This document shows positions 1 through 64,000 of a stretch of DNA of 64,000 bases, piece after piece (the stretch's first letter is position 1; each line of letters begins with the position of its first letter). The notes below the pieces were generated by a model. It ran no database searches. It was not told the DNA's origin and saw only the letters and a program-made list of their open reading frames with translations. The position numbers and the translations under genes were made by a program. This DNA is from a virus (taxonomy: Duplodnaviria; Caudoviricetes), in IMG/VR virus record IMGVR_UViG_3300037067_026718, positions 1 through 64,000 of that record. One strand, 5' to 3'.

Positions 1-237
1 GATGTGGGAAAACACATCCTGATACTCATGTTTGACTACGAACGGGTAGTCTTTTCTGCCGGAATATCCGAGGTAAACACATGGCAAAAATCGAGGGTCA
101 CCATGTGTGTTCCTGCAGCGACGGTATGGACATTCTGTTTCCGACTCAGGCTGTGGTTTGACTACTCTCCTCACCACCACCCGCCCCGTCTCCAGCACCT
201 CTCGCACTTTAGGGCTGGTCAGGATTATGCGCTTCAT
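1..237 (-). CDS. ASCH/PUA-like phage protein, N-terminal part (runs off left edge)
   Basis: Not in ORF track; ATG at 237 gives MKRIILTSPKVREVLETGRVVVRRVVKPQPE, resembling the family N-terminus ILF..MVRAIL.GRKT.TRRVVKPQP. Confidence 0.55.
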   Translation of the reverse strand, partial: MKRIILTSPKVREVLETGRVVVRRVVKPQPESETECPYRRCRNTHGDPRFLPCVYLGYSGRKDYPFVVKHEYQDVFSHI

Positions 238-239
238 GA

Positions 240-464
240 TTACCTCTTTTCCATCAATTCTGCAGGGGTGGGGATGTCTTTCGGTCTGCTTTGTGTGTCA
301 GCAAACTGAAACCCCACCCTCTGCTCAACAAAGGTCTTTGTTCGACCCTGCAGTCCTTCCGTCCATACATACCGGCAGCTTTGGCAACGGTAAGCTCTGC
401 GCCCATCCATGGCTCTACCTTTGTCTATGCCGGTATGCTTACAACTCGGGCAGATGCGCTTCAC
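240..464 (-). CDS. small zinc-ribbon protein (InsA-like CxxC...CxxC)
   Basis: CPSC...YRCQSC; GTG overlaps the upstream stop codon. Confidence 0.55.
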   Translation of the reverse strand: MKRICPSCKHTGIDKGRAMDGRRAYRCQSCRYVWTEGLQGRTKTFVEQRVGFQFADTQSRPKDIPTPAELMEKR

Positions 465-874
465 TCCCCGCCCCCGTTCTGCTCTTGCTTTTCGTACCAA
501 AACACAATTGGCTGTTCTTTGATTTCGAGAAACCCGAACCGCTTGGCTGCTCTTGCTATTGAGTGATGGAAAATTGAGGTTTTGATACGCTCAAGCAAGT
601 AGCGAAAATCCTCTGCAGTATTGCCACCCTTTAGTATGTTGCATGCAGAACACGAAGGAACAAGGTTATCGATGTTCTCACGCTCGGGATAGTTTACTTC
701 CCCGGTAGGAACCAGTCTGTCATATCCGTTTTTGCGTTCGGACTTGAGTTTCCGCTCGACTGGCAAGAAATGGTCAGCATGCCATCCGGTAGCAGGGAGG
801 TCGCAACCGCAGTACCAGCATTTGCCTCCAGACTTGTTCCACACCTGAAGACGCTGTGCTTTGCTCAGCTTCAC
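461..874 (-). CDS. HNH endonuclease
   Basis: CWYCG...HADHFLP...NLVPSCSACNILKG; likely GTG start at 874. Confidence 0.85.
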   Translation of the reverse strand: MKLSKAQRLQVWNKSGGKCWYCGCDLPATGWHADHFLPVERKLKSERKNGYDRLVPTGEVNYPERENIDNLVPSCSACNILKGGNTAEDFRYLLERIKTSIFHHSIARAAKRFGFLEIKEQPIVFWYEKQEQNGGGE

Positions 875-1404
875 TATTGTTCCCCGTTCTGCTCGGCGTC
901 GAGGCTGCTGCATCCTCCGCACTGTGTTCTACCTTCGCCCTTGCAGCCTCCGATGGGCATATCTGACGGCTTGAGTTCGACGAATCTGCTGCATCGTTCG
1001 GCGTCGAGGCTGGAGAGAACATCCTTAGCAAGTTTGTACGGGCAGTCGGACGCATGGCTAATGTGCGCAAAGTCATCACAATCCCAATTCCCGCACGCAC
1101 GACAGTACACTCTTTCAGCCACATCAGAGTAATGATCGAAACTGGCATTCTTCATAACCCTACGAAGAACCTCCGCCAGTTCCTTCTTGTCCACGAGCAG
1201 CGCTTTCAGCTTCCGCATGACGTGGGCGTTCCCTTTGGTCGGGCTGGGATTAGCGAAGGACGGCAGGCAGTCAAGCGCAGCAGCCACAGCGGCCATGAAT
1301 GCTTCGAGAGATTGGATGTACCTCACCGTACCGCTAATTTCACGTTCATGTTTTTCGATGGATAACCGAAGGAAATTGTTCGTTTCCTGATCAATGTCAG
1401 CCAT
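874..1404 (-). CDS. hypothetical phage protein, Cys-rich C-terminus
   Basis: Start refined to MADIDQ (1404); fits the tiling of adjacent genes. Confidence 0.6.
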   Translation of the reverse strand: MADIDQETNNFLRLSIEKHEREISGTVRYIQSLEAFMAAVAAALDCLPSFANPSPTKGNAHVMRKLKALLVDKKELAEVLRRVMKNASFDHYSDVAERVYCRACGNWDCDDFAHISHASDCPYKLAKDVLSSLDAERCSRFVELKPSDMPIGGCKGEGRTQCGGCSSLDAEQNGEQ

Positions 1405-1648
1405 TATTGGCCGTCCCTTCCGATTTCCGCATGGAGGCATTGCATGTGTTGTTCTTCCCCACCGGTATGGTGCAGGTATAAGCGCCACCCTTGCAAGGAT
1501 TCTTGCCAACGAAGAACTGGCAAGAGTAGCACTTTCCCCAGCATCTGCCTCTTGTTTGGTTGTCGCCTGGGGGCCTGTAGCATCGGCACTCTTCACATGG
1601 AATGTCTCCGCGTTTTGCTTTCCTGTAGTGGGGAGCTGGCCAGTTCAT
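1397..1648 (-). CDS. Cys-rich hypothetical protein
   Basis: MNWPAPHYR...; TGATG overlap with the upstream gene. Confidence 0.55.
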   Translation of the reverse strand: MNWPAPHYRKAKRGDIPCEECRCYRPPGDNQTRGRCWGKCYSCQFFVGKNPCKGGAYTCTIPVGKNNTCNASMRKSEGTANNG

Positions 1649-2298
1649 CACTCCCCGCTTTCTCCGTCCTGGGCTTCGTAGATGGCAAGAAGGGTAAGAG
1701 CACGCAGAATGCGGCGGCAATGGGAACACTCGTCCACGGAACAGAGTCCGTAATGGCATGGGGCATTTTTCATGTGTTCTCGATACTGCTCGGGGGTCAT
1801 ATGATAGCCCACCTGTTCCTTCAGCGCCGCTGCCAGAATCTGCATGGTAATCTTTTCTGAGATCGGCTCCGCTGAAGTAATAGACCCTTCTTCGCTCCTG
1901 GATGGGCAGGCAATCCATCCATAGTCAGGCTCTGATAGATCGCCGTCTGGGTCTTCGTGTACCCATAAGCCTTCACCGTTTATGCGGATAGGCTCTCCGC
2001 AGTGCTTGCAAATGCTTTTGATAAGGGGCTCTCTTTTGCTTGGTGTCGCTTCCAATTGACTCATGAAAGCAATGGCCTTATCGCGCTCCTCTTCTTGCAT
2101 CTTCAGCATGGCATCGTAATCGTCTGCGGCGATGATGACAACGTTGAGTCGGTATAGGTTACGAGGATATGCCTTGAGATGGCCCCAGTCAGATACGGCC
2201 ACGTTGACACGGTTGTAGCCGCCCTCGAGTTCGGGGGCTACCACTCCGGCTTCCAGTACGTAGCCACGGATAACACTCGGCGTTTCGTTGTTACTCAT
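1648..2298 (-). CDS. hypothetical phage protein
   Basis: 216-aa ORF with overlapping start/stop junctions; CxxC motifs. Confidence 0.65.
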   Translation of the reverse strand: MSNNETPSVIRGYVLEAGVVAPELEGGYNRVNVAVSDWGHLKAYPRNLYRLNVVIIAADDYDAMLKMQEEERDKAIAFMSQLEATPSKREPLIKSICKHCGEPIRINGEGLWVHEDPDGDLSEPDYGWIACPSRSEEGSITSAEPISEKITMQILAAALKEQVGYHMTPEQYREHMKNAPCHYGLCSVDECSHCRRILRALTLLAIYEAQDGESGE

Positions 2299-2597
2299 TT
2301 ATGCACTGTCCCTTCATGTTCTGCGATCAAAGCCTTTTCCGCACACGCATCGCAGAGAACTACGTTTGGGCCTTTACTCCTGAAGGCAATAGCCATCTTA
2401 TCGCCATTCTCGAATGGTTTTTTGCACCAGAAGCACTGGTCCATGGGGCGCCTGGATTTGGACCTGATGGCTCTGAACCTGTCGCTCATCACCATCCAAT
2501 CCCTCTTTATTGCCGTGAACTGAATCGTCTTCGTCCTGGCAGGCACCCTTTTTGTAAGGACGCCAGGCTTTGCTGCTTTTTCTGTCGCAGTTTTCAA
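2295..2597 (-). CDS. zinc-finger hypothetical protein
   Basis: CFWC...CDAC. Confidence 0.6.
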   Translation of the reverse strand: MKTATEKAAKPGVLTKRVPARTKTIQFTAIKRDWMVMSDRFRAIRSKSRRPMDQCFWCKKPFENGDKMAIAFRSKGPNVVLCDACAEKALIAEHEGTVHK

Positions 2598-2887
2598 TCC
2601 GGAAATCCTTTCTTGGCTTTATTGCCGGGGGTTCCGCACATGCAGTGTTCTTCATTCTCGCCGCATGAGCAGCCTCTTCGATATGTTCCTGCGGGTGGCA
2701 GAACGCCGTCATCCAGATCTGTATCAAGCATGGCTTCGTAGCACTCGGGGTGCATCCTGGTCATGACCCTCTCATCGTAGCAAAACCATCGCCAGTACGT
2801 CGTACCTTTCTCGATGACTTCGTTGCACCAGTCGCAGGTATGGGCCTTGCGGGATTTTTTTACCTGGAGCGCGTCACTGGTTTCCAT
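2594..2887 (-). CDS. zinc-finger phage protein
   Basis: RKAHTCDWC...MHPEC; GGAGG SD. Confidence 0.7.
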   Translation of the reverse strand: METSDALQVKKSRKAHTCDWCNEVIEKGTTYWRWFCYDERVMTRMHPECYEAMLDTDLDDGVLPPAGTYRRGCSCGENEEHCMCGTPGNKAKKGFPD

Positions 2888-2904
2888 TATTCCTCCTAGA
2901 ATAA

Positions 2905-3255
2905 TTAGGCATAACCGACCGCCTTGCCGGTGTTGTGCTCAACTTGAACAGCCCTGTCATCCCAGAGCTCAATCATTTTGAAGTCTTTCTCGGCTGTTAC
3001 ATCAAGGCGGGGAAGACCGTTTTCTTCGAGCCAGTCCTGGATGGCCTTCCTCGCCTTTCCAGCGAATCCTTCAGGCTGAGAAGAGCAAACCCTGGCGGTC
3101 ATTATCTTGACCTCGACCTGGCCACTCGACAGCCACTCAAGAATTCTATCTTTCATGAGTGGAATTATCGGACCTATTGAACAAGGGCCATTCCATTCGG
3201 CATATACAGCCAGTGTCCCGTCGAGGTCTACACCTATCCAAGGCTTTCCCGTCAC
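2905..3255 (-). CDS. HAD-superfamily phosphatase (PNK 3'-phosphatase-like)
   Basis: GVDLDGTL motif I, IMTAR motif II, K...LWDDRAV motifs III/IV. Confidence 0.85.
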   Translation of the reverse strand: MTGKPWIGVDLDGTLAVYAEWNGPCSIGPIIPLMKDRILEWLSSGQVEVKIMTARVCSSQPEGFAGKARKAIQDWLEENGLPRLDVTAEKDFKMIELWDDRAVQVEHNTGKAVGYA

Positions 3256-3602
3256 GGTTTCTCCTTCGGGAACAGGGCGACGGCTTCGTCAAAGATTCTG
3301 CCAAAGAATTGGTCAGATGTTCTATCGCAGAACATATCACGATTGGCCGCCAGCTTACGGCAGATAGCCACTGCCTTCTGTTCCCGTGTCGTCTCCGCAG
3401 CGGGGGCGTCGAGGCTGAATAGAATGTGGTCGGCAGCCGCAAGGGTTCCGCGACATACCTTGACGCACGCCATGTATTCAGCCTTCGATGCGTCACCGTG
3501 GAGGTCTACAGCGTACTGGACATTCATCTCTATGATGCGATTCAAGGCTGTTCGCATCATGTTGATCGACTTCGCCATCTCCTCGCGTGTTACAGTTTCC
3601 AT
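3252..3602 (-). CDS. hypothetical phage protein
   Basis: ORF with SD; fits gene tiling. Confidence 0.6.
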   Translation of the reverse strand: METVTREEMAKSINMMRTALNRIIEMNVQYAVDLHGDASKAEYMACVKVCRGTLAAADHILFSLDAPAAETTREQKAVAICRKLAANRDMFCDRTSDQFFGRIFDEAVALFPKEKP

Positions 3603-3620
3603 CTCTTCCTTTCTTCGGCA

Positions 3621-3869
3621 TCAGAATGCCGTCGGGAAAACCATCTCACCTTGAGTGATCTCCTCGAGCGTTGAAATGGTATCCTCAAGTTGATCTATGG
3701 CATCCCCCAGTTCTTCGTATTTGGCGCTGCCCTGAAGGTTCTCAGGCATGTTGTCCTGCCAGTCCTGGAGCTCGTCGCGCAGCTCAGTGATGCCATCAAT
3801 GACGGCCTGCAGATTCTCCTGGAGATCTGCATACCTTGTAGCTCTACTTTTGGGCTTGGGCTTGGGCAT
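3621..3869 (-). CDS. acidic coiled-coil phage protein
   Basis: ELRDELQDWQDNMPENLQGS pattern common in large phages. Confidence 0.7.
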   Translation of the reverse strand: MPKPKPKSRATRYADLQENLQAVIDGITELRDELQDWQDNMPENLQGSAKYEELGDAIDQLEDTISTLEEITQGEMVFPTAF

Positions 3870-47656: not shown

Positions 47657-48277
47657 TTATGGATAAACCCCTTCATTCTCGATGGAAAGCTCAAGACGCC
47701 TCTCCATTTCTTCCTCTATGGCTTGCCTGTTGCTGGTCATGTAGTGGATGGCAAAGGACAGGATGTCTTCATCGCTCCAGTCTGCAGGGATGTTGAGTAT
47801 CGTTTGCCTGACTCCCTCCACCAGGCCAGCGATTCTTTCTCGGGGCGGTGTAGTGCTGCTTTCCTGGGGCTGCACTTTGTCGGGCATGAAGATTGCCCAT
47901 CCATCGTTGGGCGACTGGCAAACCGTGAAGGCGTCGAACCGAAGCCAGCCTCTGAGCATGATGTCGGTCATACTGGCAACGTAAGCTGCGACTTCACATG
48001 GGACGCCGGCCTGCAGCTTGTCGCGCAACTCGCCTCGAGTCTTGGGGCGATAGATGCTGCTGATATTGTTTTCTTCTATCTGCTGGGATGCGATTGTAGC
48101 CATCACATTCATCAGCTCAGATCTCCGGAACCGTTCTTCGTCACAGAGCAGGTTGTGGTCCATTGAATAGAGGATGCACTGGTGGAGAAGATCAATGCGC
48201 TTTCTGATGGTATCCTGCAACTGTTTGATGTCGAAGGGTGCAATCAGTTGCTCGGTGTCATCATTCGGAACTGGCAT
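47657..48277 (-). CDS. hypothetical protein
   Basis: MPVPND start. Confidence 0.6.
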   Translation of the reverse strand: MPVPNDDTEQLIAPFDIKQLQDTIRKRIDLLHQCILYSMDHNLLCDEERFRRSELMNVMATIASQQIEENNISSIYRPKTRGELRDKLQAGVPCEVAAYVASMTDIMLRGWLRFDAFTVCQSPNDGWAIFMPDKVQPQESSTTPPRERIAGLVEGVRQTILNIPADWSDEDILSFAIHYMTSNRQAIEEEMERRLELSIENEGVYP

Positions 48278-48333
48278 GCCATATCCTTTCCTTTGGTATT
48301 TTTGCGATTGCTTCCTCAAACCGGAACAGCCTT

Positions 48334-48747
48334 TCATTCATCCACCGGGCATCGGACCGGTTCTTCGCAGTTGTCGGGGTCTGTAATGCCGATTTCACAG
48401 CAGGAGTCCTGGCAGTGGTTTTCTCCGTGGCGCCAGTAGGAATGGCTGCAACCAACGCAGTTCTGGTTCTGCGGCCAGACAAAGGATGTAAAGCCGGCGA
48501 AGGCTTCCGCGTTCTCGGCGGCGAGCTCGGCATCAAGCAGTTTCATGCGCTGAACCGCGATGTCATTGAATATCATCTGGTTGAACTCATCCCGCTGATT
48601 CCCCACGAACACAGCCAGGACGTCAACCGAATGGTGATAGATTTTCTCTGTCAAGTAAGCGGCATGCGCGGGTGTCATGGCCCTGATGTGGTCAACATAG
48701 GATTTTCTATCCACGCCTATGCTGACGACGGTGTAGGTCTTGCTCAT
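48334..48747 (-). CDS. hypothetical protein with Cys-rich tail
   Basis: MSKTYT start after GGAGG. Confidence 0.6.
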   Translation of the reverse strand: MSKTYTVVSIGVDRKSYVDHIRAMTPAHAAYLTEKIYHHSVDVLAVFVGNQRDEFNQMIFNDIAVQRMKLLDAELAAENAEAFAGFTSFVWPQNQNCVGCSHSYWRHGENHCQDSCCEIGITDPDNCEEPVRCPVDE

Positions 48748-48755
48748 TCTATTTC

Positions 48756-49022
48756 TCAACCTCCATGTTCTTTTGTCTGGTTCACTACTTCCCATTTCCC
48801 GTTCTGAAACCGGTGAAGAACGTTTCCGGGGAAGGTGACGCTATCAAGGCTGAAGCCTTCGATGAGGTTGCAGTGCTTCATTGAATTCAGAGCGTCATAA
48901 TAGGCTTGTCGGGCTTCCCGGTGCTTCCACGGATCTCCGCAGGCCATTTTCTCCTGCTCATTCCAGAGCTGAACAAGATCTCTGGCATGGTGAACAATTC
49001 GACTTCTGTCGAGAGAGTTCAT
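48756..49022 (-). CDS. hypothetical protein
   Basis: ATGA overlap. Confidence 0.55.
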   Translation of the reverse strand: MNSLDRSRIVHHARDLVQLWNEQEKMACGDPWKHREARQAYYDALNSMKHCNLIEGFSLDSVTFPGNVLHRFQNGKWEVVNQTKEHGG

Positions 49023-49366
49023 ACCGCTGAAACCTCATCAGCAATGGTTGAGAGGGTCTCCGTATCGACGCATCTCGTAACAAGACGTGTGTCTTCGGAG
49101 TGCTTGACGTAAGCCGTCCAGAAGACTGAGGTGCTGTCTATGTGCAGCATGCCGCCTTCCGTACGAACCAACTCCTGGCATTCTTCGTCTTCGTAGAAAT
49201 CCGGACTGCTTTCATACCAGCTCATCTTCGATGGAGGGCCGAGCGGGGTTATCATCTCGGGGAACATTGCGATTGCCGTCAGCAACTGCCTGGCTCGAGC
49301 AGGGCTGATATCGACTCGAGCGAAAAGAGACTGATCGTTTCCCGATGCTTCGATGATTATCGACAT
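49019..49366 (-). CDS. hypothetical phage protein
   Basis: RTE...L.I.....FWTAY.KH motif. Confidence 0.6.
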   Translation of the reverse strand: MSIIIEASGNDQSLFARVDISPARARQLLTAIAMFPEMITPLGPPSKMSWYESSPDFYEDEECQELVRTEGGMLHIDSTSVFWTAYVKHSEDTRLVTRCVDTETLSTIADEVSAV

Positions 49367-57315: not shown

Positions 57316-58044
57316 CTAAACCCGGGGGATCCTTCGTAGATAGTTCATCGTATTTTTGCGCAGCAATGCCGAGGCCAGGGCTCCTGCTGCGGCACCAATG
57401 AGAGTAGTCCTTGCGGATAGCAAATAGTTTCTGTAAGTGGCCAATGCGGACATGCGGACTGGGCTGTTCTCGGGGACCCCGGCCCTGTTCCAGGCTTCTA
57501 CTTCCTGCCTGTACAAAGGAGTGTTTTCTGGATCCGAGAACATGGAAGATATCATCGACCGGTACTGGCCTCGTCTTTTCGTAAGAGATCCCGATTCCTT
57601 CCAGTCGCTGTAATGCCCCAGTTCATGGCGCATGACTTCATCAACCACTGGAGGCTTCACGGATATGGCTGGCTTGCCTCCCTTGACAGGAGGTTCAACA
57701 AAGAAACCGTGCCCTGGTCTTGTGGAGTTCAAAGCTTTGCGGTAGAGCATCCGCTTCAGAACATTCACGCCTGGCTGCTTGAGCCATTTGTTTATCTCTT
57801 CTTTGTTGGAAAGTACGCTGATATCTTCCGGGAATGATGTAACATCGAATTTCTTCGCTTTTCCAAATTCTCGTTCCACTTTCGACAACGCTACCAATGA
57901 GATAATCGTGTTGGCGAGCATTCCAGCCATGGATCCAGCTACTGCTCCTCCGAATATTTCCCTGCCTGGAACAGGGCCACTCGACCATCCCGCACGCTTC
58001 TCGAGCTCTATCCTGGCTGCAAGCTTGATGATGTGGTGGTTCAT
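57316..58044 (-). CDS. HExxH zinc-metallopeptidase-like protein with two hydrophobic segments and KxA motifs
   Basis: VMRHELGH...QEVEAW; IKLAA...EKRAG; GGAVAGSMAG; IGAAAGALA. Confidence 0.65.
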   Translation of the reverse strand: MNHHIIKLAARIELEKRAGWSSGPVPGREIFGGAVAGSMAGMLANTIISLVALSKVEREFGKAKKFDVTSFPEDISVLSNKEEINKWLKQPGVNVLKRMLYRKALNSTRPGHGFFVEPPVKGGKPAISVKPPVVDEVMRHELGHYSDWKESGSLTKRRGQYRSMISSMFSDPENTPLYRQEVEAWNRAGVPENSPVRMSALATYRNYLLSARTTLIGAAAGALASALLRKNTMNYLRRIPRV

Positions 58045-61000
58045 CAGTACTCCCCTGTTCTCCAGAGATCTCTTCCGAAGTCGATGCCTTGCAGGAACGG
58101 AGTAACTGGCTTTACTCCTTTTGAAGGACTCATGGCGCCCATGGCTGCGCTTTCCTGAAGCTGTCGAACCATGTCTCTACCCAGCATCTTGAGTGCCCAG
58201 TCAGGTTCGTTTTTTGCCAGATCGTAATCCATGCCGTCAAAGACCGGTTCGTACTTGATCAGCGCATCGCTGTCGCCTATATCCGCATTGATCGCCTGCA
58301 GCTCTTTGATGTCCTTGATGTCACCTGTCATCATGTCCTGGCTGCTGCCGGGATCCAAAACCTTGCCGTATCTCGTAAGGGCCGCCACTACTGTCTCTAT
58401 GTACCGGCGGTCTGGAGCCTTGCCGCCGTAGTTCCTTTCGATTTCGTCAACAAGGTAGTTCTGCATGGCCCTAAGGCCGTTGTATTTCATGACATCGTTG
58501 GGATCCGGAAGACCTTCATTGATCTGAAATCCGGCCTTCAGGCGATCGCCTACGGCAACCTTGAGCGGAGCATTGGTAGACGTGGTGAAAGACGTTCCGT
58601 CCTGCATGATGATTTCGTAGCCGCCGCCTCGCATCTTATTGATCTTGCCCACCACGCCGGCCTCAGGAGCAAGAGTGGCCTTCGCTCCGGCAGGGGCTCT
58701 TCCATTCAAGAGAGGCCAGATGGCATACAAGCCTTCTATTTTGTTGCTGGAAAGAGCGGAGCCTCCACCATGGAAAGCCTTCAACGTGAGCTGAACAGCC
58801 GGCTCGGTAAGGGTGTGGGCCGATATGACTCCTATGTCGGCGCCGACCTTCGGCTTCTCTCCATCCGGGAGTCTACCGAAATCCTTGGCGTAGAACCCGG
58901 TTTTTGCCACTGACGTCAAGGGAGATCTTACCATCACCGTCTTGATCTTGTTCGAACGGGCTGATGCTATCAGCTCTTCTGTTATGGGATCCCCGGCCAC
59001 GGCCAATGTTTTCCCCGCCGGGGTTACCAGGTCGAAAGCCAGGTATCTCTGAAGCACGGTGGGATGGTCAATGGGATACTCGATACCATCGGTAGGGTTT
59101 GCATCTCCGGGTGCCACTACGCTGCCCAGGGTAGACCTCAGAAGCTGCTTGCTGAAATAGCCGGGCTCCCTGACTTCAATGCTCTTCGAATGCAGAGCAG
59201 GCCGGTTGCCTTTCGATGCCACCCAGTAGTCCATGAAATCGAGTCCTTCTCCGTATCCGGTGCGGATCAGATGAGGGATAGGGCCGTCGAATCCGTTCAC
59301 CGTCATGGGAGAAAACTTGATCTGCATGACATTGGACCAATTCCCCTTGGCTCCGGAATCAGCAAGGACGGCAACTGCCGACCGAGGGTCTATTGAAGAC
59401 CTGAGCCTGGAGTAGACAGAGTCGGTTTCCTTCTGAGCCAAGAAGCCGCCAACGGACTTGGACATCTCTTCCTTGCTTATCGGCATGAAGTCCTTCAGGC
59501 TGAATGACAACCCAACCCTGGTGTTGAAGGCATTGCCCAGATCGGTGAGTTTCATCAAAGTGTTGACGTAATCCCCGGGAGCATGCTTACCCACAGCGTT
59601 GAGTATCTCGCCTATCTTCTTGTCGTTGTAGACTACATTGTAACCCTGTCTGAACTGCTCAGGAATGGCTTTGTTCACCAAAATACGACCGGCAGTGACA
59701 ACGACATTGCCTTTGTCTGTTTTGAGGGTTACTCCGTCATTGAGGGCTATTTCATTGGCTTCGTAAGCCTCTATGACTTCCCTCTCGGTGGTGTACTTCT
59801 TGTCGGGCCTCGGGTCTACGAAGTGAGTACCGTAATAGAGGCCGGCAATGGTGTCTTCCTCGGGACGCATGATCGTCTGGTCCAGCCCGGGCTTGAACAG
59901 GTTCTTGGATGGCAGCAGCTTTTCTCTGGCTTCCCTCACCGCTTCGTCGGAAACCGGGACGGAATAGCCCATTGCATCGCCATCGAAGTCGGCATTGAAG
60001 CCACGGGCTATCAAAGGACTGATCTCCATGGACTTGCCCGGTATCATCTTGGCCCAGAAAGCCATGACGTTGAACTTGTGGAGCTTGGGGTCCCTGGTGA
60101 TCATGACCGGACGATGTTTCATCTCGGCCTGCAGAGTTGCTTCAGCCAAAGCTTCCCTGTCTTCTATCATCCGCCTGGCTTCCAGAGGGGGGATGCCTTC
60201 CTTGGTCAGCCTGCGCATTACGAAAGAATGGAAGAGCGGCCATGCTGATTCTTCGGGAAGTCCGATCTCGTCTACGGACAAACCGGGATTGGGCCTGATG
60301 ACTGCACGGCCGCCAACCGACTGACGTTTGTCGAATATCTTATCCTGGAAATGCCCCCAGGAGGAAGACTCCCCCTTGAGATATTCGAGGATCCCGGTCC
60401 TCGGCTTGGCTCCGTACCCTATGCCCGTGGCCCCTATCTGGATCGCCTTTACGGCATCGTAGAGGTTCGTCCTCACTTCATCCAGTACGGAGGCCGGCAT
60501 GCTGCCCTGGCCGTCCTTGAGCGTCATGGCAAGCGTTCCTATGTCCTGGTACAGAGCTGTGAAATCACTGACCCTTATCCCGTTGTCTTTCGTGAGGTAC
60601 ACCGGTCTGAACTGCGGAGGAAGAACCGGAACCTTGGATATGACGTAAGCGTTCTCCGGTTTGATGCCGATGCGCTGCAGAGCGTTCAGGTACCGCAATT
60701 TCTTGACCATGGCATCCTTGGCAGTACCGGTGTGATTGGGGATCATCTCCTTCAAAGACTTGATGGAAGACTCTACGTCAATGGACGAAAGCATGGCTTT
60801 GAAAGCATGGCCACCGGTGATGGACTTGTCCCCCTTTACCCGGGGAGCCAGTACTCCGTCTTTGTACCCTACCCTGCCGGCGATGATGTCATCATAGGCG
60901 CCCTGCGTCAGGCCCAGGATGGCTCTGATAGCCTTTTCGTAAACCGGGTTGGGAAGAGGCTCCGCCAGGGAGATATGCCCCCATTTGTCTCCCTGCATGC

Positions 61001-64000
61001 CTCCAAGAAGCTTTTCATCGTAGAGGCCGCCTTCGTATGACTGCAACATCTCGTATTTACCGGGACGCCCGATCCGGGTGGCCATCGCTGGATTGGGTAT
61101 TTCGCCCGAACTCATCCTGTCGACTTCTCTGTCGGTGAGAGGCAAAAGCTGGTAATTGTCGCCTTGCTTGCGGACATCAATGCCGGCGCCTTTGAGTAGT
61201 GCCTGCAACTTTTTGAACGCAAAGGTCATCTGGGGCGATGGAATGTTGCTGCCTTCCTCAACGGCCCTCCAGAAATCATCGTTCTTCTCGCTCTTGGTGG
61301 TCGCTATCTCCCGCAGGTTGCTCGTGGCTCCATGGGCCAACAGAGCGTAGAATCCCAGGCCTCCCATCTTGGGTCCCTTAATGGGGCGCTGGCTGACTAT
61401 GTCGTAAGGATCGCTTCTGTTGCGAACATTGAAGTACGGCTCGGCCTCCTGCTTCTGCCGGGTAAAGTACTGATACCCGGTCATTACCTTGATGGGCCTG
61501 TCACCATCCTTGATGGGATTGCCGTCCTTGTCGTAGATCTCTTCCTGGTCTTCAAGACCGTATTCCTTCATTTTCTTGTATACGGCCTCCGGAGAGCTCC
61601 CCTTCAGGTTGAAAAGCTCCACAATGAAAGGTATACCGGTGTGGGCGGCTATCTTCGAAGCTGCGGCCTCGATTACCTGGCCGGTGTTGTTCCTTGAGGT
61701 GACGGCGGCCGGGTTCTGAAGAATGTCGAACGGCTGACCACTTTTGTCATGAGGCATTTCATCGTCGGGAAGGATCGCAGATACGACGCCCTTCGCCTGA
61801 TGACGATTGGAATTGCCAGTCCAGCATGCCTTCCCGTTGCGACGGACATACATCACATGGTTGGGAACAGTGCAGCAATACACCAGGCCGTCGTAATCAA
61901 CCAGTTTTTCCTCCTGGATGTGCTGTGACTTTGTATGGCCATGGTTGACCATGGGCTCAGTTTTCTTCCTGATAACAGAAACCCTGTATCGATCGGCATG
62001 GGCTTCATTGTCATCCCTAAGGCACGGAGTTACATTGGCAGCCATCCCGGCTTTCAATGCTATTTCCTGAACGTCATCAGCCAAGCGCTTACTCGTAGTG
62101 GAGTAACTCACACATGAAAAACTGGAGCCGTCGCAAGAAAGCAGTGCATCCAAAAGAATATTCATCTGCCTCTGCGACAACTCCATGAACTCCCTGGGGA
62201 CATACTTGTCGTTGGCGTGTCCGAGTACCGATAGATACTCATTGAGCTGCCTTGAGGATATGATGATTTTGCCTTCCCTGGGATTGTACGGCCACTTCAT
62301 TCTATCAAGGCATGCTGTGATTCTGTGGTAGACGTAACCACCATACGAATTCTTTGTTGTTTTATTCTTATTGATAGTTACGTAATATCCATCTTTCGAG
62401 AAATGGCCATCAGCTATGTAATACCCCAGGAATTCCAGCCAGTCATCCATGGCTACTTCAGGAAGCCCATGGGGGCTGAAGCCATGATGACGGCCATCCA
62501 CAGTCAGCAGGCAAAACTCTGATGCTTCCTTACCTATCCAAGTTCCATTCTTCTTGTACTGGACTCGTCGGCCCATAATATCCTGAGCCTGATGCAAGGC
62601 GAATGATTGAGCTCTCCGCGTTTTGACCAGCATGTTGTGATTGAGAGTCGTCAGCAAGTCGATCTGCTGAGACCGGATGCCATACATTTTTCCGGTGTGC
62701 CAATAGGAGAACACAGCCTCTGGATGCTGGTATTCCACAATTCCGGTATCCTGGTTGAGCGTGCATACCTGCTCATTAACGGTGAGATCAGAAACCGGGA
62801 TCCAACCCCTCTGGGTAAGGTATTCGTGGTCATCTGAAAGACACAGCTTATCCCCTGTCTTTACCGACCGCTCCGACCGCACGAAAATCTTGATCCCGGT
62901 GGGAGTACGGACTATTCTTTCGACGACGCCCGGGTCGCTGGCTTCCCAGACCTTGTCATCCCTGATCAGTTGCTGCTTCATTACCTGGCTCACATTGCCT
63001 GCCAGGATATCCTCCTGGGTCAAGCTTTTGGGGGTGAGCTTGAGGATGATAGGGTCACCGGTGTTCAACACGGTGCCTTCTTTGACAACTCCGTCATCAT
63101 CTATGTTGTCGAGCTGCATGGCCCGGTACTCTTTGGGATAGAGGGCCTTGAACCTGTTCTTATTGAAAACGTCATGCTTCCTGGAGCTGGCTTCCACCTG
63201 GTCTACGTGGATGGCTTTCATCTTCTCGGCAGCGCTCTCGGATATCAGCAGGCCGTCCATGAAGTTCCAGCCCTTGTATGGAAGAAAGGCCACTCTGAGA
63301 TTGCGCCCCATAGCCAGCATGCCGTTCCTGATGAAACTGTTGGTGGCGACTGCCTGCCCCTTCTTTACTATTTCACCCGCCTTTACAACGGGTATTTCAT
63401 GGATGACATTGCCTCCGTTGAGAGGGTAGTTTGTGTAAAGCTCTATGTCTTCGGTATCGCCGGTCTTGATGTCGCGCAGGGTGATGGAGTCCTTCTTCAC
63501 CTTCACGACTTCGCAATCGCCCATGTAAGAAGGAACGCGCCGAGAGAATCGGTTGCCGAACTCTTGTTCCGCGGTGAAGACGGATCCATCCGCGTTTTTG
63601 TGAACCCCGGCCAATACCAAGGGGTTTTCCGGCTCTGCAAGCATGAGAGCATGTGTGCTTTGCTTGACGGACATAGTGCTTCTTGTAGGAATGTTGTTGG
63701 GAAGGAATGGGATCAAAAGGCTTGCCCAGTCAAAAGCATGGTGGGGGGAGGCTATGACGTAATCGATCTTCGAGTATGGAACCTCAACTATCTCGCCGTG
63801 ATGCAATGCCTTTACCTTGGCCTTGTTGGGAAGGTACACCCCGGTTTCGCGCATGCTGTACTCACCAGGAATGGCGGTGTACTTGTCGTATATCTCCCGG
63901 GGGGTAACCGCCTTTGTTCCGGATTGCTTGCCCGTGGTGAAATCGAGAACGGAAGCCTTGAGCTCCCTCCCCACCTTCCGGGCGCCGGACGACAGATGCA
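58044..64000 (-). CDS. rpoBC: fused beta-beta' multisubunit-type RNA polymerase (5' end beyond window), intein-containing
   Basis: beta: GRNLRVAFLPYKGWNF.D, GDKL/SNRHQAKGVV, NP..V.SR.N.GQ; beta': WGHISL, VPVLPPQFRP, RAVI.P.P.L, R.P.LH, NADFDGD (59976-59996), SGAKG, EPAVQLTLKAFH; frame open to 64000. Confidence 0.95.
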   Translation of the reverse strand, partial: HLSSGARKVGRELKASVLDFTTGKQSGTKAVTPREIYDKYTAIPGEYSMRETGVYLPNKAKVKALHHGEIVEVPYSKIDYVIASPHHAFDWASLLIPFLPNNIPTRSTMSVKQSTHALMLAEPENPLVLAGVHKNADGSVFTAEQEFGNRFSRRVPSYMGDCEVVKVKKDSITLRDIKTGDTEDIELYTNYPLNGGNVIHEIPVVKAGEIVKKGQAVATNSFIRNGMLAMGRNLRVAFLPYKGWNFMDGLLISESAAEKMKAIHVDQVEASSRKHDVFNKNRFKALYPKEYRAMQLDNIDDDGVVKEGTVLNTGDPIILKLTPKSLTQEDILAGNVSQVMKQQLIRDDKVWEASDPGVVERIVRTPTGIKIFVRSERSVKTGDKLCLSDDHEYLTQRGWIPVSDLTVNEQVCTLNQDTGIVEYQHPEAVFSYWHTGKMYGIRSQQIDLLTTLNHNMLVKTRRAQSFALHQAQDIMGRRVQYKKNGTWIGKEASEFCLLTVDGRHHGFSPHGLPEVAMDDWLEFLGYYIADGHFSKDGYYVTINKNKTTKNSYGGYVYHRITACLDRMKWPYNPREGKIIISSRQLNEYLSVLGHANDKYVPREFMELSQRQMNILLDALLSCDGSSFSCVSYSTTSKRLADDVQEIALKAGMAANVTPCLRDDNEAHADRYRVSVIRKKTEPMVNHGHTKSQHIQEEKLVDYDGLVYCCTVPNHVMYVRRNGKACWTGNSNRHQAKGVVSAILPDDEMPHDKSGQPFDILQNPAAVTSRNNTGQVIEAAASKIAAHTGIPFIVELFNLKGSSPEAVYKKMKEYGLEDQEEIYDKDGNPIKDGDRPIKVMTGYQYFTRQKQEAEPYFNVRNRSDPYDIVSQRPIKGPKMGGLGFYALLAHGATSNLREIATTKSEKNDDFWRAVEEGSNIPSPQMTFAFKKLQALLKGAGIDVRKQGDNYQLLPLTDREVDRMSSGEIPNPAMATRIGRPGKYEMLQSYEGGLYDEKLLGGMQGDKWGHISLAEPLPNPVYEKAIRAILGLTQGAYDDIIAGRVGYKDGVLAPRVKGDKSITGGHAFKAMLSSIDVESSIKSLKEMIPNHTGTAKDAMVKKLRYLNALQRIGIKPENAYVISKVPVLPPQFRPVYLTKDNGIRVSDFTALYQDIGTLAMTLKDGQGSMPASVLDEVRTNLYDAVKAIQIGATGIGYGAKPRTGILEYLKGESSSWGHFQDKIFDKRQSVGGRAVIRPNPGLSVDEIGLPEESAWPLFHSFVMRRLTKEGIPPLEARRMIEDREALAEATLQAEMKHRPVMITRDPKLHKFNVMAFWAKMIPGKSMEISPLIARGFNADFDGDAMGYSVPVSDEAVREAREKLLPSKNLFKPGLDQTIMRPEEDTIAGLYYGTHFVDPRPDKKYTTEREVIEAYEANEIALNDGVTLKTDKGNVVVTAGRILVNKAIPEQFRQGYNVVYNDKKIGEILNAVGKHAPGDYVNTLMKLTDLGNAFNTRVGLSFSLKDFMPISKEEMSKSVGGFLAQKETDSVYSRLRSSIDPRSAVAVLADSGAKGNWSNVMQIKFSPMTVNGFDGPIPHLIRTGYGEGLDFMDYWVASKGNRPALHSKSIEVREPGYFSKQLLRSTLGSVVAPGDANPTDGIEYPIDHPTVLQRYLAFDLVTPAGKTLAVAGDPITEELIASARSNKIKTVMVRSPLTSVAKTGFYAKDFGRLPDGEKPKVGADIGVISAHTLTEPAVQLTLKAFHGGGSALSSNKIEGLYAIWPLLNGRAPAGAKATLAPEAGVVGKINKMRGGGYEIIMQDGTSFTTSTNAPLKVAVGDRLKAGFQINEGLPDPNDVMKYNGLRAMQNYLVDEIERNYGGKAPDRRYIETVVAALTRYGKVLDPGSSQDMMTGDIKDIKELQAINADIGDSDALIKYEPVFDGMDYDLAKNEPDWALKMLGRDMVRQLQESAAMGAMSPSKGVKPVTPFLQGIDFGRDLWRTGEY
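61812..62843 (-). mobile_element. 344-aa intein with LAGLIDADG homing endonuclease
   Basis: Starts CLSDDHEYLTQRGW; block B TTLNHNM; FLGYYIADG and LDALLSCDG; ends VYCCTVPNH..VRRNG..WTGN followed by Ser. Confidence 0.93.

What the first reader, a model, noticed from the sequence alone, without database searches (positions are those of the whole stretch)
58044..64000. Single-chain beta-beta' RNA polymerase that has lost both beta' zinc sites
Seen: the beta end (FKKLQALLKGAGIDV) runs straight into the beta' start (YQLLPLTDREVDRMSSGEI) near 61150-61190. The region for the N-terminal Zn-binding domain is reduced to GLYDEKLLGGMQGDKWGHI with no Cys, and the second site reads GDANP...RSPLTSVAKTGFYAKDFG with all four Cys positions replaced. 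Known: E. coli beta' uses C70/72/85/88 and C814/888/895/898; rpoBC fusions occur in Helicobacter and Wolbachia; phiKZ-type phage RNAPs are split rather than fused. Inference: a streamlined, bacterial-like phage RNAP with altered promoter recognition and termination behaviour.
Basis: partly seen in the sequence, partly recalled or inferred. Interest (0 to 1): 0.7.

Follow-up and report, generated by a model that had tools for sequence, protein, structure and literature searches.

The report
Zinc-free single-chain phage RNA polymerase
A roughly 150-kb uncultured phage encodes both large subunits of a bacterial-type RNA polymerase as one protein, interrupted by a self-splicing intein; once spliced it has one cysteine in 2048 residues and neither of the two structural zinc sites of cellular enzymes, probably because it is carried in the virus particle.

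Summary
It is a continuous minus-strand ORF with its stop at 58044. The ORF runs past the window to contig position 65222 and encodes 2392 aa: beta, a 6-residue linker, then beta'.

It holds 10 of the protein's 11 cysteines, so the spliced 2048-aa enzyme has one Cys, against 1.78% in the rest of the phage proteome.

Alignment with the bin's own bacterial rpoC shows two changes:
- The N-terminal zinc-binding domain is deleted.
- The second-site ligands are replaced by A2041, S2104, Y2111 and D2114.

The two zinc sites have different histories:
- The zinc-binding domain is absent in all 120 fused homologues and all 61 IMG/VR loci examined.
- The second site is kept as CCCC in most, which usually have no other Cys. 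It was lost at least three separate times, each time ending in Tyr-Asp.

The contig is a tailed phage distantly related to Salmonella phage Arash, whose homologous polymerase gives more spectra than any other protein in purified virions. It encodes two sigma factors and no detectable alpha.

This scan has found the fused family before on other DNA. The zinc-free, nearly Cys-free state, the convergent replacement and the intein are the added points. Virion carriage and all activity are inferred.

The parts
58044..64000 (-). Part of the fused beta-beta' RNA polymerase gene inside the window (aa 409-2392 plus the TGA stop). The whole gene is contig C3:58044-65222, 2392 aa.
   Evidence: Pfam hits: Rpb2_6 143 bits, Rpb1_2 70 bits, Rpb1_5 43.7 bits.
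62844..64000 (-). Beta N-extein, window part (aa 409-793), ending in ...VKTGDKL.
   Evidence: Aligns to host rpoB ...EGDKV.
61812..62843 (-). 344-aa intein with a LAGLIDADG homing endonuclease. It starts at Cys1 (CLSDD...) and ends ...CWTGN. The +1 residue is Ser. It holds 10 of the protein's 11 Cys.
   Evidence: Pfam LAGLIDADG_3 25.7 bits (cut-off 22.5) and Intein_splicing 21.5 bits, below cut-off. It is the only insertion of 20 or more residues relative to host rpoBC. Intein-less relatives read GDK[LI]-[ST]xR straight through. NCBIfam matches intein-containing DnaB, GyrA, RFC and Tes.
61173..61811 (-). Beta C-extein (aa 1138-1350): SNRHQAKGVV... through the beta C-terminal helix FKKLQALLKGAGIDV.
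   Evidence: AF2 pLDDT about 92 at the helix.
61155..61172 (-). Six-residue linker RKQGDN that joins the beta C-terminus covalently to the beta' N-terminus.
   Evidence: Alignment with host rpoB end and rpoC start. The junction is conserved in all 120 family members. pLDDT 94.
58047..61154 (-). Beta' moiety (aa 1357-2392). It contains no cysteine.
   Evidence: The AF2 model has mean pLDDT 88.4 and matches bacterial beta' chains at TM 0.74-0.79.
60963..61028 (-). Site of the missing N-terminal zinc-binding domain. GLYDEKLLGG-M-QGDKWGHISLA stands where bacteria have GLFCERIFGP plus about 33 residues carrying CxC...CxxC, then RRERMGHIEL.
   Evidence: The domain is gapped in 120 of 120 homologues and 61 of 61 IMG/VR loci.
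60465..60605 (-). Beta' clamp helices (aa 1540-1586), retained. This is the predicted docking site of region 2 of the phage sigma factor.
   Evidence: alignment to the bacterial clamp-helix region. The complex prediction interface covers residues 341-387 of the chain, equal to aa 1540-1586.
59976..59996 (-). Catalytic Mg-binding motif NADFDGD (aa 1743-1749).
59100..59102 (-). A2041, at the position of the first ligand of the second zinc site (E. coli C814 equivalent). This position is variable within the clade.
58881..58913 (-). S2104, Y2111 and D2114 in SVAKTGFYAKD, replacing the other three ligands of the second zinc site (E. coli C888, C895 and C898 equivalents).
   Evidence: Y and D are invariant and the first position is S or T in the 17-member clade. 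pLDDT 92-95 without metal.
57316..58044 (-). Downstream gene g103 (242 aa, no Cys, HELGH motif, hydrophobic ends). Its ATG shares one base with the polymerase TGA (TGATG), which suggests translational coupling.
   Evidence: No Pfam hit.

Best explanation
The gene encodes the catalytic core of the phage's own transcription machine, with bacterial beta and beta' joined in one chain.

How it is made. The 2392-aa precursor carries a 344-aa intein inside the beta active-site loop (GDKL|SNRHQAKG). It must therefore splice to a 2048-aa enzyme before it can work.

What the mature enzyme keeps and lacks. It keeps the catalytic motifs, the clamp helices and the overall beta' fold. It lacks both structural zinc sites:
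- The N-terminal zinc-binding domain is deleted. This is a trait of the whole phage family.
- The second Cys4 cluster is replaced by A/S/Y/D. Here Tyr and Asp, with Ser, presumably fill and hydrogen-bond the former metal pocket.

The result is a polymerase that needs no zinc to fold and has almost no oxidisable thiols.

How it probably works. It acts with the phage's two sigma-70-type factors and without a phage alpha subunit; the covalent beta-beta' link may replace alpha-guided assembly. Most likely a copy, together with the Cys-free sigma g152, is packed in the capsid and delivered with the DNA to start early transcription. That would explain the family-wide purge of cysteines.

My odds for each step:
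- Fused phage polymerase with an intein: about 0.95.
- No zinc at either site: about 0.85.
- Uses the phage sigma factors: about 0.75.
- Virion-carried, and that is the reason for the Cys and zinc purge: about 0.5.
For: SHOWN BY SEQUENCE AND TOOLS

Identity of the gene:
- Continuous ORF with Pfam beta and beta' domains, NADFDGD and GDK...KG.
- The intein is bounded exactly by comparison with host rpoB and with intein-less relatives.

Loss of the zinc sites:
- The zinc-binding domain is deleted and the second-site ligands are A/S/Y/D, both against solved beta' chains and against the bin's rpoC.
- The AF2 model, built without metal, has mean pLDDT 88.4 and pTM 0.86. pLDDT is 91-95 at the substituted site and 92-94 at the junction. 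It matches bacterial beta' at TM 0.74-0.79.

Cysteine purge:
- The spliced enzyme has 1 Cys in 2048 aa against 1.78% in the other 215 predicted proteins of the contig (binomial P about 4e-15).
- Among intein-less homologues that keep the second site, 63 of 83 have exactly four Cys, namely the four ligands.
- Among intein-less homologues that lost it, 11 of 17 have none and 6 have one.

Polarity and recurrence of the second-site loss:
- The Zn2-less forms are nested among CCCC forms. They comprise a 17-19-member clade (support 0.97-1.0) that includes this gene, P0074 (H-S-Y-D), and the trio L074/L078/L087 (x-G-Y-D).
- P0074 and the trio each sit inside well-supported CCCC clades.
- Around the site, P0074 is 66% identical to its CCCC sisters and 33% to this gene, so recombination does not explain it.

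Phage context:
- The portal, large terminase, five structural proteins and both sigma factors are homologous to those of Salmonella phage Arash.
- Pfam hits: GpA_ATPase, Baseplate_J, Sigma70_r2 plus r4 (g133) and Sigma70_r3 (g152).
- No alpha (PF01000, PF01193) on the contig.

Sigma docking:
- Complex prediction of g152 with beta' aa 1357-1899 scored 0.69 against a best of 3 controls of 0.00. That mark was reached by 58 of 80 solved complexes and 2 of 110 mismatched pairs.
- The runs agree in at least 57% of contacts, and the partner's pLDDT is at least 73. My own alignment was used, so the counts hold only roughly.
- The interface is the canonical one between sigma region 2 and the clamp helices, so the pass may reflect likeness to solved holoenzymes.

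SUPPORT FOR VIRION CARRIAGE (INFERENCE)
- Arash Gp206 and Gp216, the homologues, give more spectra than any other protein in purified virions, and sigma Gp10 is also detected there (PMC10585845).
- In Arash, virion-detected proteins are Cys-poor: Gp4 0 of 1097, Gp10 0 of 234, Gp206 1 of 1525, Gp229 2 of 2548. Replication enzymes have 1-2.4%.
- Here g152, the homologue of the virion-detected sigma, has 0 Cys in 244 aa. g133, the homologue of Arash's other sigma (Gp196), has 10 in 334 aa.
- In phiKZ, the non-virion beta'-N subunit gp55 has the C58/C60/C73/C76 cluster. The virion paralogue gp180 has only two distant Cys (the gp55 zinc domain is confirmed in PMC7618050).
Against: - No measurement exists of splicing, zinc content, activity or virion content for this phage.
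- The Arash authors themselves note that abundant enzymes may simply co-purify with particles.
- Some structural proteins on this contig are not Cys-poor: portal g135 has 10 Cys and g173 has 19. Cys-poverty is therefore not a general virion signature.
- The AR9 non-virion polymerase also lacks the zinc-binding domain (PMC7618050). Loss of that domain is thus not tied to packaging.
- Unlike many relatives, this polymerase gene is not next to the portal gene; it lies about 19 kb away.
- AF2 models no metals, so high confidence at the substituted site does not prove a stable metal-free fold.
- In this clade the beta motif RHGNKG is relaxed (RHQAKG here; MYGQKG or RAGAKG in relatives). This could mean altered catalysis.
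- The intein's penultimate residue is Gly rather than the usual His.
- The promoter-motif search found nothing.
Confidence: 0.7

Rival explanations
1. The polymerase is a purely intracellular (non-virion) phage enzyme. In this reading, the purge of cysteines and zinc sites reflects some other pressure. Candidates are oxidative or zinc-limited hosts, or immunity to a phage factor or host defence that attacks the zinc domain or thiols of the host polymerase.
For: - The AR9 non-virion polymerase also lacks the zinc-binding domain (PMC7618050).
- The Arash authors allow that abundant enzymes may co-purify with virions.
- Only one polymerase gene is found on the contig, so the same enzyme must in any case act inside the cell for late genes.
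- The portal and some structural proteins here are not Cys-poor.
Against: - In Arash, Cys-poverty follows virion detection, and it separates the two sigma paralogues in both phages.
- The phiKZ virion beta'-N subunit lacks the Cys cluster that its non-virion paralogue keeps.
- The gene sits in one co-oriented block with Cys-free neighbours g103 and g106.
Confidence: 0.3
2. Zinc or another metal is still bound at the second site through non-cysteine ligands (Asp2114, a nearby His, or Tyr). On this view the site is remodelled rather than lost.
For: - Asp is invariant at the fourth position in the clade.
- One independent lineage has His at the first position (P0074, H-S-Y-D).
- Intermediate forms CCCD and CCCS exist in IMG/VR loci.
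Against: - In this gene only one of the four positions (Asp) is a usual zinc ligand.
- The first position is unconstrained in the clade: A, E, K, S, Y, P, V, R or T.
- Ser, Gly and Tyr are poor zinc ligands (general coordination chemistry).
- The family trend is towards removing every Cys.
Confidence: 0.07
3. The gene is a decaying or non-functional copy, or the fusion is an assembly or frameshift artefact. On this view the zinc-site loss is simply degeneration.
For: - Loss of a site that is needed for assembly of the bacterial enzyme (my recollection of the literature; not checked here).
- A relaxed RHGNKG motif.
- Raw reads could not be inspected.
Against: - A 7.2-kb ORF with no stop.
- All catalytic motifs are present.
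- 17-19 clade members at 43-70% identity keep full length and the S/T-Y-D triad.
- The junction is identical in architecture in 120 homologues and 61 IMG/VR loci.
- The model is confident.
- No other polymerase gene was found on the contig.
Confidence: 0.03

Closest known systems
RNA polymerase of Salmonella phage Arash (Gp206 + Gp216, with sigma factors Gp10 and Gp196; OQ632216, PMC10585845), and of Vibrio phages D69, D181 and D148
   Same: - Closest cultured relatives: tblastn E 6e-101 to 2e-90 at 27-33% identity.
- The same covalent beta-to-beta' junction, and the same absence of the N-terminal zinc-binding domain.
- The same pair of sigma factors, and homologous portal, terminase and structural proteins.
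- Cys-poor as well: Gp206 has 1 Cys in 1525 aa.
   Different: - Arash and D69 split beta' after the catalytic half. The break is at P0002 residue 1834, about where cyanobacteria split gamma from beta''. Here the protein is one chain.
- They keep the second zinc site as CCCC: Gp216 has C232, C284, C291 and C294, and these are its only cysteines.
- They have no intein at this site.
- The Arash paper labels Gp206 simply 'beta subunit' and does not describe the fusion.
mReC, the multi-subunit-RNAP-encoding Caudovirales of Weinheimer and Aylward 2020 (PMC7481178)
   Same: Metagenomic tailed phages, some over 200 kb. They have full-length COG0085 and COG0086 homologues that form a deep clade apart from bacteria. 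The family found here matches that description: at least 852 proteins and at least 484 IMG/VR contigs of up to 219 kb.
   Different: - The text I could search uses 'fused' only for crAss-like phages. It does not mention zinc, cysteine, intein, sigma or virion.
- Whether this contig falls inside their clade was not tested.
phiKZ and AR9 jumbo-phage multisubunit RNA polymerases (virion and non-virion sets)
   Same: - Phage-encoded relatives of bacterial beta and beta', without alpha.
- One set is packed in the virion.
- AR9 nvRNAP lacks the zinc-binding domain (PMC7618050).
- phiKZ virion gp180 lacks the Cys cluster that non-virion gp55 has.
   Different: - Those enzymes are split into 4-5 polypeptides, use no sigma factor (PMC7824862) and are far more diverged. 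Pfam and phmmer found only gp74 in phiKZ.
- phiKZ gp74 and gp80 keep Zn2-like Cys clusters.
Bacterial fused rpoBC of Helicobacter and Wolbachia (NCBIfam PRK09603 and PRK14844)
   Same: The beta C-terminus is joined to the beta' N-terminus in one ORF.
   Different: - This protein scores 388 and 304 bits against curated cut-offs of 5372 and 4632, so it is not a member. This is an independent fusion.
- The models for those proteins are about 2840-2890 positions long, against 2048 aa here.
- Those enzymes work with alpha and omega, as far as I know. I did not check their zinc sites.
Inteins in the second-largest subunit of eukaryotic and viral RNA polymerases (Goodwin et al. 2006, PMC1635734), and intein-bearing RNAP subunits of Staphylococcus jumbo phages (PMC10638138)
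   Same: - The intein sits at a highly conserved site close to the active site, so splicing must precede function.
- Some of those inteins also end in TGN.
   Different: Whether any is inserted at the homologous position (allelic) was not determined. This one lies in a bacterial-type fused gene.

Membership tests
Bacterial-type two-barrel multisubunit RNA polymerase core (beta/beta') | Beta' Mg-binding motif NADFDGD | tested here: met
   aa 1743-1749, window 59976-59996.
Bacterial-type two-barrel multisubunit RNA polymerase core (beta/beta') | Beta active-site loop GDK...(R)(H)G.KG with both lysines | tested here: met
   GDKL|SNRHQAKG is contiguous only after intein removal. Both Lys are present, and the middle of the motif is relaxed relative to RHGNKG.
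Bacterial-type two-barrel multisubunit RNA polymerase core (beta/beta') | Pfam beta and beta' domains above gathering score, and a beta' fold | tested here: met
   Rpb2_6 143 bits, Rpb1_2 70 bits, Rpb1_5 43.7 bits. The model matches bacterial beta' at TM 0.74-0.79.
Bacterial-type two-barrel multisubunit RNA polymerase core (beta/beta') | N-terminal beta' zinc-binding domain (CxC...CxxC), said to be shared by all such polymerases (Lane and Darst, cited in PMC7618050) | tested here: not met
   Deleted: about 33 residues are absent and there is no Cys in beta'.
Bacterial-type two-barrel multisubunit RNA polymerase core (beta/beta') | Second beta' Cys4 zinc site (E. coli C814, C888, C895, C898) | tested here: not met
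   The positions read A2041, S2104, Y2111 and D2114.
Bacterial-type two-barrel multisubunit RNA polymerase core (beta/beta') | Alpha dimer as assembly platform (phage-encoded alpha) | tested here: not met
   PF01000 and PF01193 hit only the host rpoA on contig C1 and nothing on C3 at E <= 1. Use of host alpha cannot be excluded.
Bacterial fused rpoBC (NCBIfam PRK09603 Helicobacter type, PRK14844 Wolbachia type) | Score above the curated equivalog cut-off | tested here: not met
   388 bits against 5372, and 304 bits against 4632.
Arash-type phage RNA polymerase family (probably the mReC phages) | Sequence homology to Arash Gp206/Gp216, with a covalent beta-beta' junction and no zinc-binding domain | tested here: met
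Arash-type phage RNA polymerase family (probably the mReC phages) | Companion genes: two sigma-70-type factors, plus Arash-like portal and large terminase | tested here: met
   g133 and g152 are sigma factors, g135 is the portal and g181 is the large terminase.
Arash-type phage RNA polymerase family (probably the mReC phages) | Polymerase present in purified virions | not testable with these tools
   Known only for Arash, by mass spectrometry (PMC10585845). Here there is only the indirect Cys-content signature.
Arash-type phage RNA polymerase family (probably the mReC phages) | Placement inside the deep-branching mReC clade of the RNA polymerase tree | not tested
   No tree was built with bacterial, archaeal and mReC reference sequences.
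Class 1 intein with LAGLIDADG homing endonuclease | N-terminal Cys/Ser, C-terminal Asn, and a +1 Cys/Ser/Thr, inserted in frame at a site that is contiguous in intein-less homologues | tested here: met
   C794 ... N1137 | S1138. The insertion is exactly 344 aa relative to host rpoB and relatives.
Class 1 intein with LAGLIDADG homing endonuclease | Penultimate His (block G) | tested here: not met
   The intein ends TGN. Most of the family's inteins likewise end in GN or CN.
Class 1 intein with LAGLIDADG homing endonuclease | Pfam endonuclease and splicing-domain hits above gathering score | tested here: inconclusive
   LAGLIDADG_3 scores 25.7 bits against 22.5 (met). Intein_splicing scores 21.5 bits against 35.8 (below). 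No solved relative was found by sequence.
Class 1 intein with LAGLIDADG homing endonuclease | Protein splicing and homing activity | not testable with these tools
   Needs expression.

The most novel reading that the evidence does not exclude
A whole lineage of phage polymerases has been purged of cysteine because the enzyme is stored in the capsid and delivered through the tail.

On this reading:
- The last four cysteines, the ligands of the second zinc site, were replaced at least three separate times by the same Ser/Gly-Tyr-Asp solution.
- That gives nature's own recipe for a bacterial-type RNA polymerase core that is a single chain, needs no alpha subunit and folds without any structural metal.
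- It would overturn the view that the beta' zinc sites are indispensable.
- It would offer a simple recombinant multisubunit-type polymerase.
Probability: 0.4. Interest if true: 0.75.

Novelty: new variant of a known kind. Interest (0 to 1): 0.58.

Why it matters
Structural zinc in beta' is treated as a universal feature of cellular-type RNA polymerases. From my recollection of the literature (not checked here), the second site is needed for assembly of the E. coli enzyme, and the N-terminal domain modulates termination and antitermination.

This is a natural, apparently functional lineage that lacks both sites. It has 0-1 cysteine in about 2050 residues, and there are closely related forms that still keep one site. 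That makes a ready comparative system for several questions:
- What the zinc sites are for.
- How they can be replaced. The recurrent Tyr-Asp solution is a directly testable design.
- Whether covalent beta-beta' linkage removes the need for alpha.

If the virion-delivery idea holds, it also suggests a simple sequence signature, cysteine depletion, for finding proteins that phages inject. That signature separates the two sigma paralogues in two phages.

Practically, a single-gene, sigma-dependent, thiol-free polymerase could be a convenient tool enzyme.

Tried and rejected
I therefore could not inspect the contexts of the stand-alone-looking beta' relatives P0123 and P0127. BLAST showed that they all start inside the beta C-terminal region, at P0002 residues 1294-1342 (P0128, from about 1374, aside). 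They are thus truncations or secondary splits, not classical rpoB|rpoC pairs.
- PHROGs on ten large proteins of the contig gave almost nothing. The phage nature was established instead by local tblastn against the Arash genome and by Pfam.
- Promoter search: counting 9-mers in 101 intergenic segments gave no recurrent motif. No claim is made about promoters.
- A regex for the beta flap-tip helix hit an unrelated motif. The sigma region 4 docking surface was therefore not assessed.
- A regex call of the second zinc site in IMG/VR loci was too strict. It was replaced by BLAST-mapped positions.
- phiKZ subunits could not be found with Pfam models, phmmer or motif regexes. I used the record's annotation for gp55, gp68, gp71, gp73, gp74, gp80, gp178 and gp180. 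gp123 and gp149 were not fetched, so that comparison is partial.
- Literature searches for a description of a fused beta-beta' phage polymerase found none. One search was rejected for syntax. Absence from the searchable library is not proof that it has not been described.
- The intein had no sequence relative among solved structures.
- A contig-end overlap that would have shown a complete circular assembly was not found. There is only a 3.6-kb internal exact repeat.
Full report
**1. What is there**

The finding lies on a minus-strand ORF whose TGA stop is at window 58044-58046. The ORF is open to the end of the window. The window is the first 64 kb of a 157,672-bp contig (C3) in a 4.85-Mb, 295-contig bin.

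In the contig the ORF continues to an ATG at C3:65222, which is preceded by AAGGA. That gives a 2392-aa protein, P0002. Pfam finds:
- beta domain 6 (143 bits);
- beta' domains 1, 2, 3 and 5;
- a LAGLIDADG_3 domain and a weak intein splicing domain.

NADFDGD is at aa 1743-1749.

**2. The junction**

I aligned the protein with the bin's own bacterial rpoB and rpoC (C2:570049-577783). The beta C-terminal helix aligns with LQALLKGAGIDV. Six residues (RKQGDN) follow, and then comes the beta' N-terminus.

The same short junction is present in all 120 homologues aligned. Even the relatives listed as 'shorter' start inside the beta C-terminal region, at P0002 residues 1294-1342 (P0128, from about 1374, aside). 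They are truncations or secondary splits rather than separate rpoC genes.

AF2 models the junction with pLDDT 92-94. NCBIfam places the protein far below the cut-offs of the Helicobacter and Wolbachia fused rpoBC models, at 388 against 5372 bits and 304 against 4632 bits. This is therefore an independent fusion.

**3.

Residues 794-1137 (window 61812-62843) are the only insertion of 20 or more residues relative to host rpoBC. The features are:
- The insert starts with Cys and ends TGN, and the next residue is Ser.
- It carries two LAGLIDADG-type motifs.
- It interrupts GDKL|SNRHQAKG, which is contiguous (GDKV-SGRHGNKG) in the host and in intein-less relatives.

The primary product therefore cannot be an active polymerase until it splices to 2048 aa. 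Splicing is inferred, not shown. The penultimate Gly is atypical, but most of the family's inteins share it.

The family is riddled with inteins at six or more conserved sites, including inside NADFDGD. Inteins at active-site-proximal positions of the second-largest polymerase subunit are known in eukaryotes and their viruses (PMC1635734).

**4. The zinc sites**

HMMER alignments to solved beta' chains, MAFFT with host rpoC and a four-way alignment with Arash and D69 agree.
- The N-terminal zinc-binding domain, about 33 residues with CxC...CxxC, is missing between GLYDEKLLGG and QGDKWGHISL.
- The four ligands of the second site read A2041, S2104, Y2111 and D2114.
- The beta' moiety has no cysteine. 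Ten of the protein's eleven cysteines are in the intein, and the eleventh is C570 in beta.

**5. The two sites have different histories**

The zinc-binding domain is absent in 120 of 120 fused homologues and in 61 of 61 IMG/VR loci that cover the region. It is also absent in the cultured phages Arash and D69. Its absence is a trait of the family.

The second site is CCCC in 99 of 120 homologues, in 61 of 68 IMG/VR loci, and in Arash and D69. FastTree trees rooted on the host enzyme give these Zn2-less groups:
- a clade of 17-19 members (support 0.97-1.0) that contains this gene (x-S/T-Y-D, plus two x-D-A-D);
- P0074 (H-S-Y-D), nested in a CCCC clade with supports of 0.94-1.0;
- L074/L078/L087 (x-G-Y-D), nested with supports of 0.93-0.999;
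- P0058/P0085 (A-S-Y-S), whose position is poorly supported.

Around the site, P0074 is 66% identical to its CCCC sisters and 33% to this gene, so gene conversion is excluded.

The site was therefore lost at least three times. Each time the third and fourth ligands became Tyr and Asp. Cys to Asp needs two nucleotide changes, so this is selection for a particular replacement, not mutational proximity. The first ligand position is free to vary.

AF2, which knows no metal, models the substituted region at pLDDT 91-95. The whole 1193-residue model (mean pLDDT 88.4, pTM 0.86) superposes on bacterial beta' chains at TM 0.74-0.79.

**6. Cysteine avoidance**

The spliced enzyme has 1 Cys in 2048 aa. 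The other 215 predicted proteins of the contig average 1.78% (binomial P about 4e-15).

Across the family:
- 63 of 83 intein-less CCCC members have exactly four cysteines, which are the four ligands.
- 11 of 17 intein-less Zn2-less members have none, and 6 have one.

Loss of the second site is the last step of a family-wide purge.

**7. Context**

The contig is a densely packed tailed-phage genome: 216 ORFs, 92% coding. Local tblastn against the whole Arash genome matches the following:
- the portal (g135, 8e-34);
- the large terminase (g181, 2e-31);
- five structural proteins;
- two sigma-like proteins (g133 to Gp196, g152 to Gp10).

Pfam confirms GpA_ATPase, Baseplate_J, Sigma70_r2 plus r4 (g133) and Sigma70_r3 (g152). 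No alpha homologue is on the contig, and no second polymerase was found.

The polymerase gene lies in a co-oriented run g106-g105-polymerase-g103. Its stop overlaps the start of g103 (TGATG), a Cys-free HELGH protein.

**8. How it probably works**

The retained clamp helices and the two sigma factors argue for sigma-dependent initiation.

A complex prediction of g152 with beta' aa 1357-1899 scored 0.69 against a best of 3 controls of 0.00. That mark was reached by 58 of 80 solved complexes and 2 of 110 mismatched pairs. The runs agree in at least 57% of contacts, and the partner's pLDDT is at least 73. My own alignment was used, so these counts hold only roughly. The interface pairs sigma residues 55-70 with clamp helices aa 1540-1586. 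That is the textbook interface, so the pass may only reflect likeness to solved holoenzymes.

The virion-delivery idea rests on indirect evidence:
- Arash Gp206 and Gp216 give more spectra than any other protein in purified virions, and Gp10 sigma is also detected there (PMC10585845).
- In Arash, virion-detected proteins are Cys-poor and replication enzymes are not.
- In both phages the Gp10-type sigma has no Cys, while the other sigma has 3 (Arash) or 10 (here).
- In phiKZ, the non-virion beta'-N subunit gp55 has the C58/C60/C73/C76 cluster. That zinc domain is confirmed structurally in PMC7618050. The virion paralogue gp180 has only two distant cysteines. Both phiKZ sets keep Zn2-like clusters.

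A plausible rationale, which is my inference, is this. An enzyme stored in particles outside cells and passed through the tail must work at once after delivery. It would then benefit from having no oxidisable thiols and no need to reload zinc.

Several points count against it:
- AR9's non-virion enzyme also lacks the zinc-binding domain.
- Some structural proteins here are Cys-rich.
- The Arash authors caution about co-purification.

I put this part at about 0.5.

**9. What is known**

Weinheimer and Aylward (PMC7481178) described metagenomic Caudovirales with full-length beta and beta' (mReC). In the text I could search, the only fusion mentioned is that of crAss-like phages. There is no mention of zinc, cysteine, intein, sigma or virion.

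The Arash paper calls Gp206 'beta'. Jumbo-phage reviews describe only split enzymes without sigma. PMC7618050 states that the N-terminal zinc domain is shared by all multisubunit polymerases except AR9 nvRNAP.

This scan has already reported the fused family on other DNA several times, with the same closest relatives. I reached the same reading independently before seeing those notes.

New here, as far as I could find, are:
- the family-wide lack of the zinc-binding domain;
- the near-total absence of cysteine;
- the recurrent Ser/Gly-Tyr-Asp replacement of the second site;
- the intein in this gene.

**10. Verdict**

This is a new variant of a known kind. No function has been measured.

Noticed in passing
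Family alignment; P0002 positions 401, 794, 1146, 1310, 1748/1749 and 2148-2151 (window 61812-62843 for this gene's copy): Inteins occupy at least six different conserved sites in the fused polymerase family, including inside NADFDGD and next to the trigger-loop FHGGG. Some proteins carry two or three (P0029, P0037, P0116). The site used here is shared by six members from distant clades.
   Followed up: partly
Contig C3:1-3647 (window 1-3647) and C3:149068-152714: An exact 3647-bp direct repeat with no mismatches. The sequences are unrelated beyond it. It could be a terminal repeat joined by assembly or a real long repeat; the contig is not a simple circular overlap.
   Followed up: partly
Window 57316-58044 (-), gene g103: A 242-aa Cys-free protein with an HELGH (HExxH) motif and hydrophobic N- and C-terminal segments. 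Its start codon overlaps the polymerase stop (TGATG). It has no Pfam hit.
   Followed up: partly
Contig C3 beyond the window: g106 65983-68487, g155 106371-109913, g149 98934-100046, g174 126814-127932, g152 102343-103077: A set of large proteins with no cysteine at all (834, 1180, 370, 372 and 244 aa) in a proteome that averages 1.8% Cys. They may mark particle-borne or ejected proteins. g152 is the homologue of Arash's virion-detected sigma, whereas the other sigma, g133, has 10 Cys.
   Followed up: partly
Beta motif after the intein, window 61785-61811, and homologues P0005, P0007, P0008 and P0010: In the Zn2-less clade the otherwise invariant RHGNKG loop is relaxed: RHQAKG here, and RYYAKG, RAGQKG, MYGQKG and RAGAKG in relatives. 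The flanking GDK and KG are kept.
   Followed up: no
L004 (Vibrio phage D69, OZ195729: 143288-150339); hits H2 and H3 (D181, D148): In the Vibrio phages the beta-beta'N gene and the beta'C gene are separated by about 640 bp carrying two tiny ORFs. In D181 and D148 the match additionally covers an annotated homing endonuclease. This suggests the beta' split arose from insertion of a mobile element.
   Followed up: no
phiKZ NC_004629: gp55 47923-49185; gp180 187786-189258: The non-virion beta'-N subunit gp55 has the CxC...CxxC cluster (C58, C60, C73, C76). The virion paralogue gp180 has only two cysteines (152 and 430) and so no such cluster. Overall Cys is 13 in 2390 aa for the virion subunits examined, against 26 in 2307 aa for the non-virion ones.
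   Followed up: partly
Genome bin, contig C262:1824-2837: A second, partial bacterial-type rpoB fragment (26% identical to the phage beta), in addition to the rpoBC operon on C2. This is consistent with the bin's 6% estimated contamination.
   Followed up: no
Contig C3:65237-65875, gene g105, directly upstream of the polymerase gene: A 212-aa protein with 7 cysteines and no Pfam hit, lying between the Cys-free g106 and the polymerase gene.
   Followed up: no
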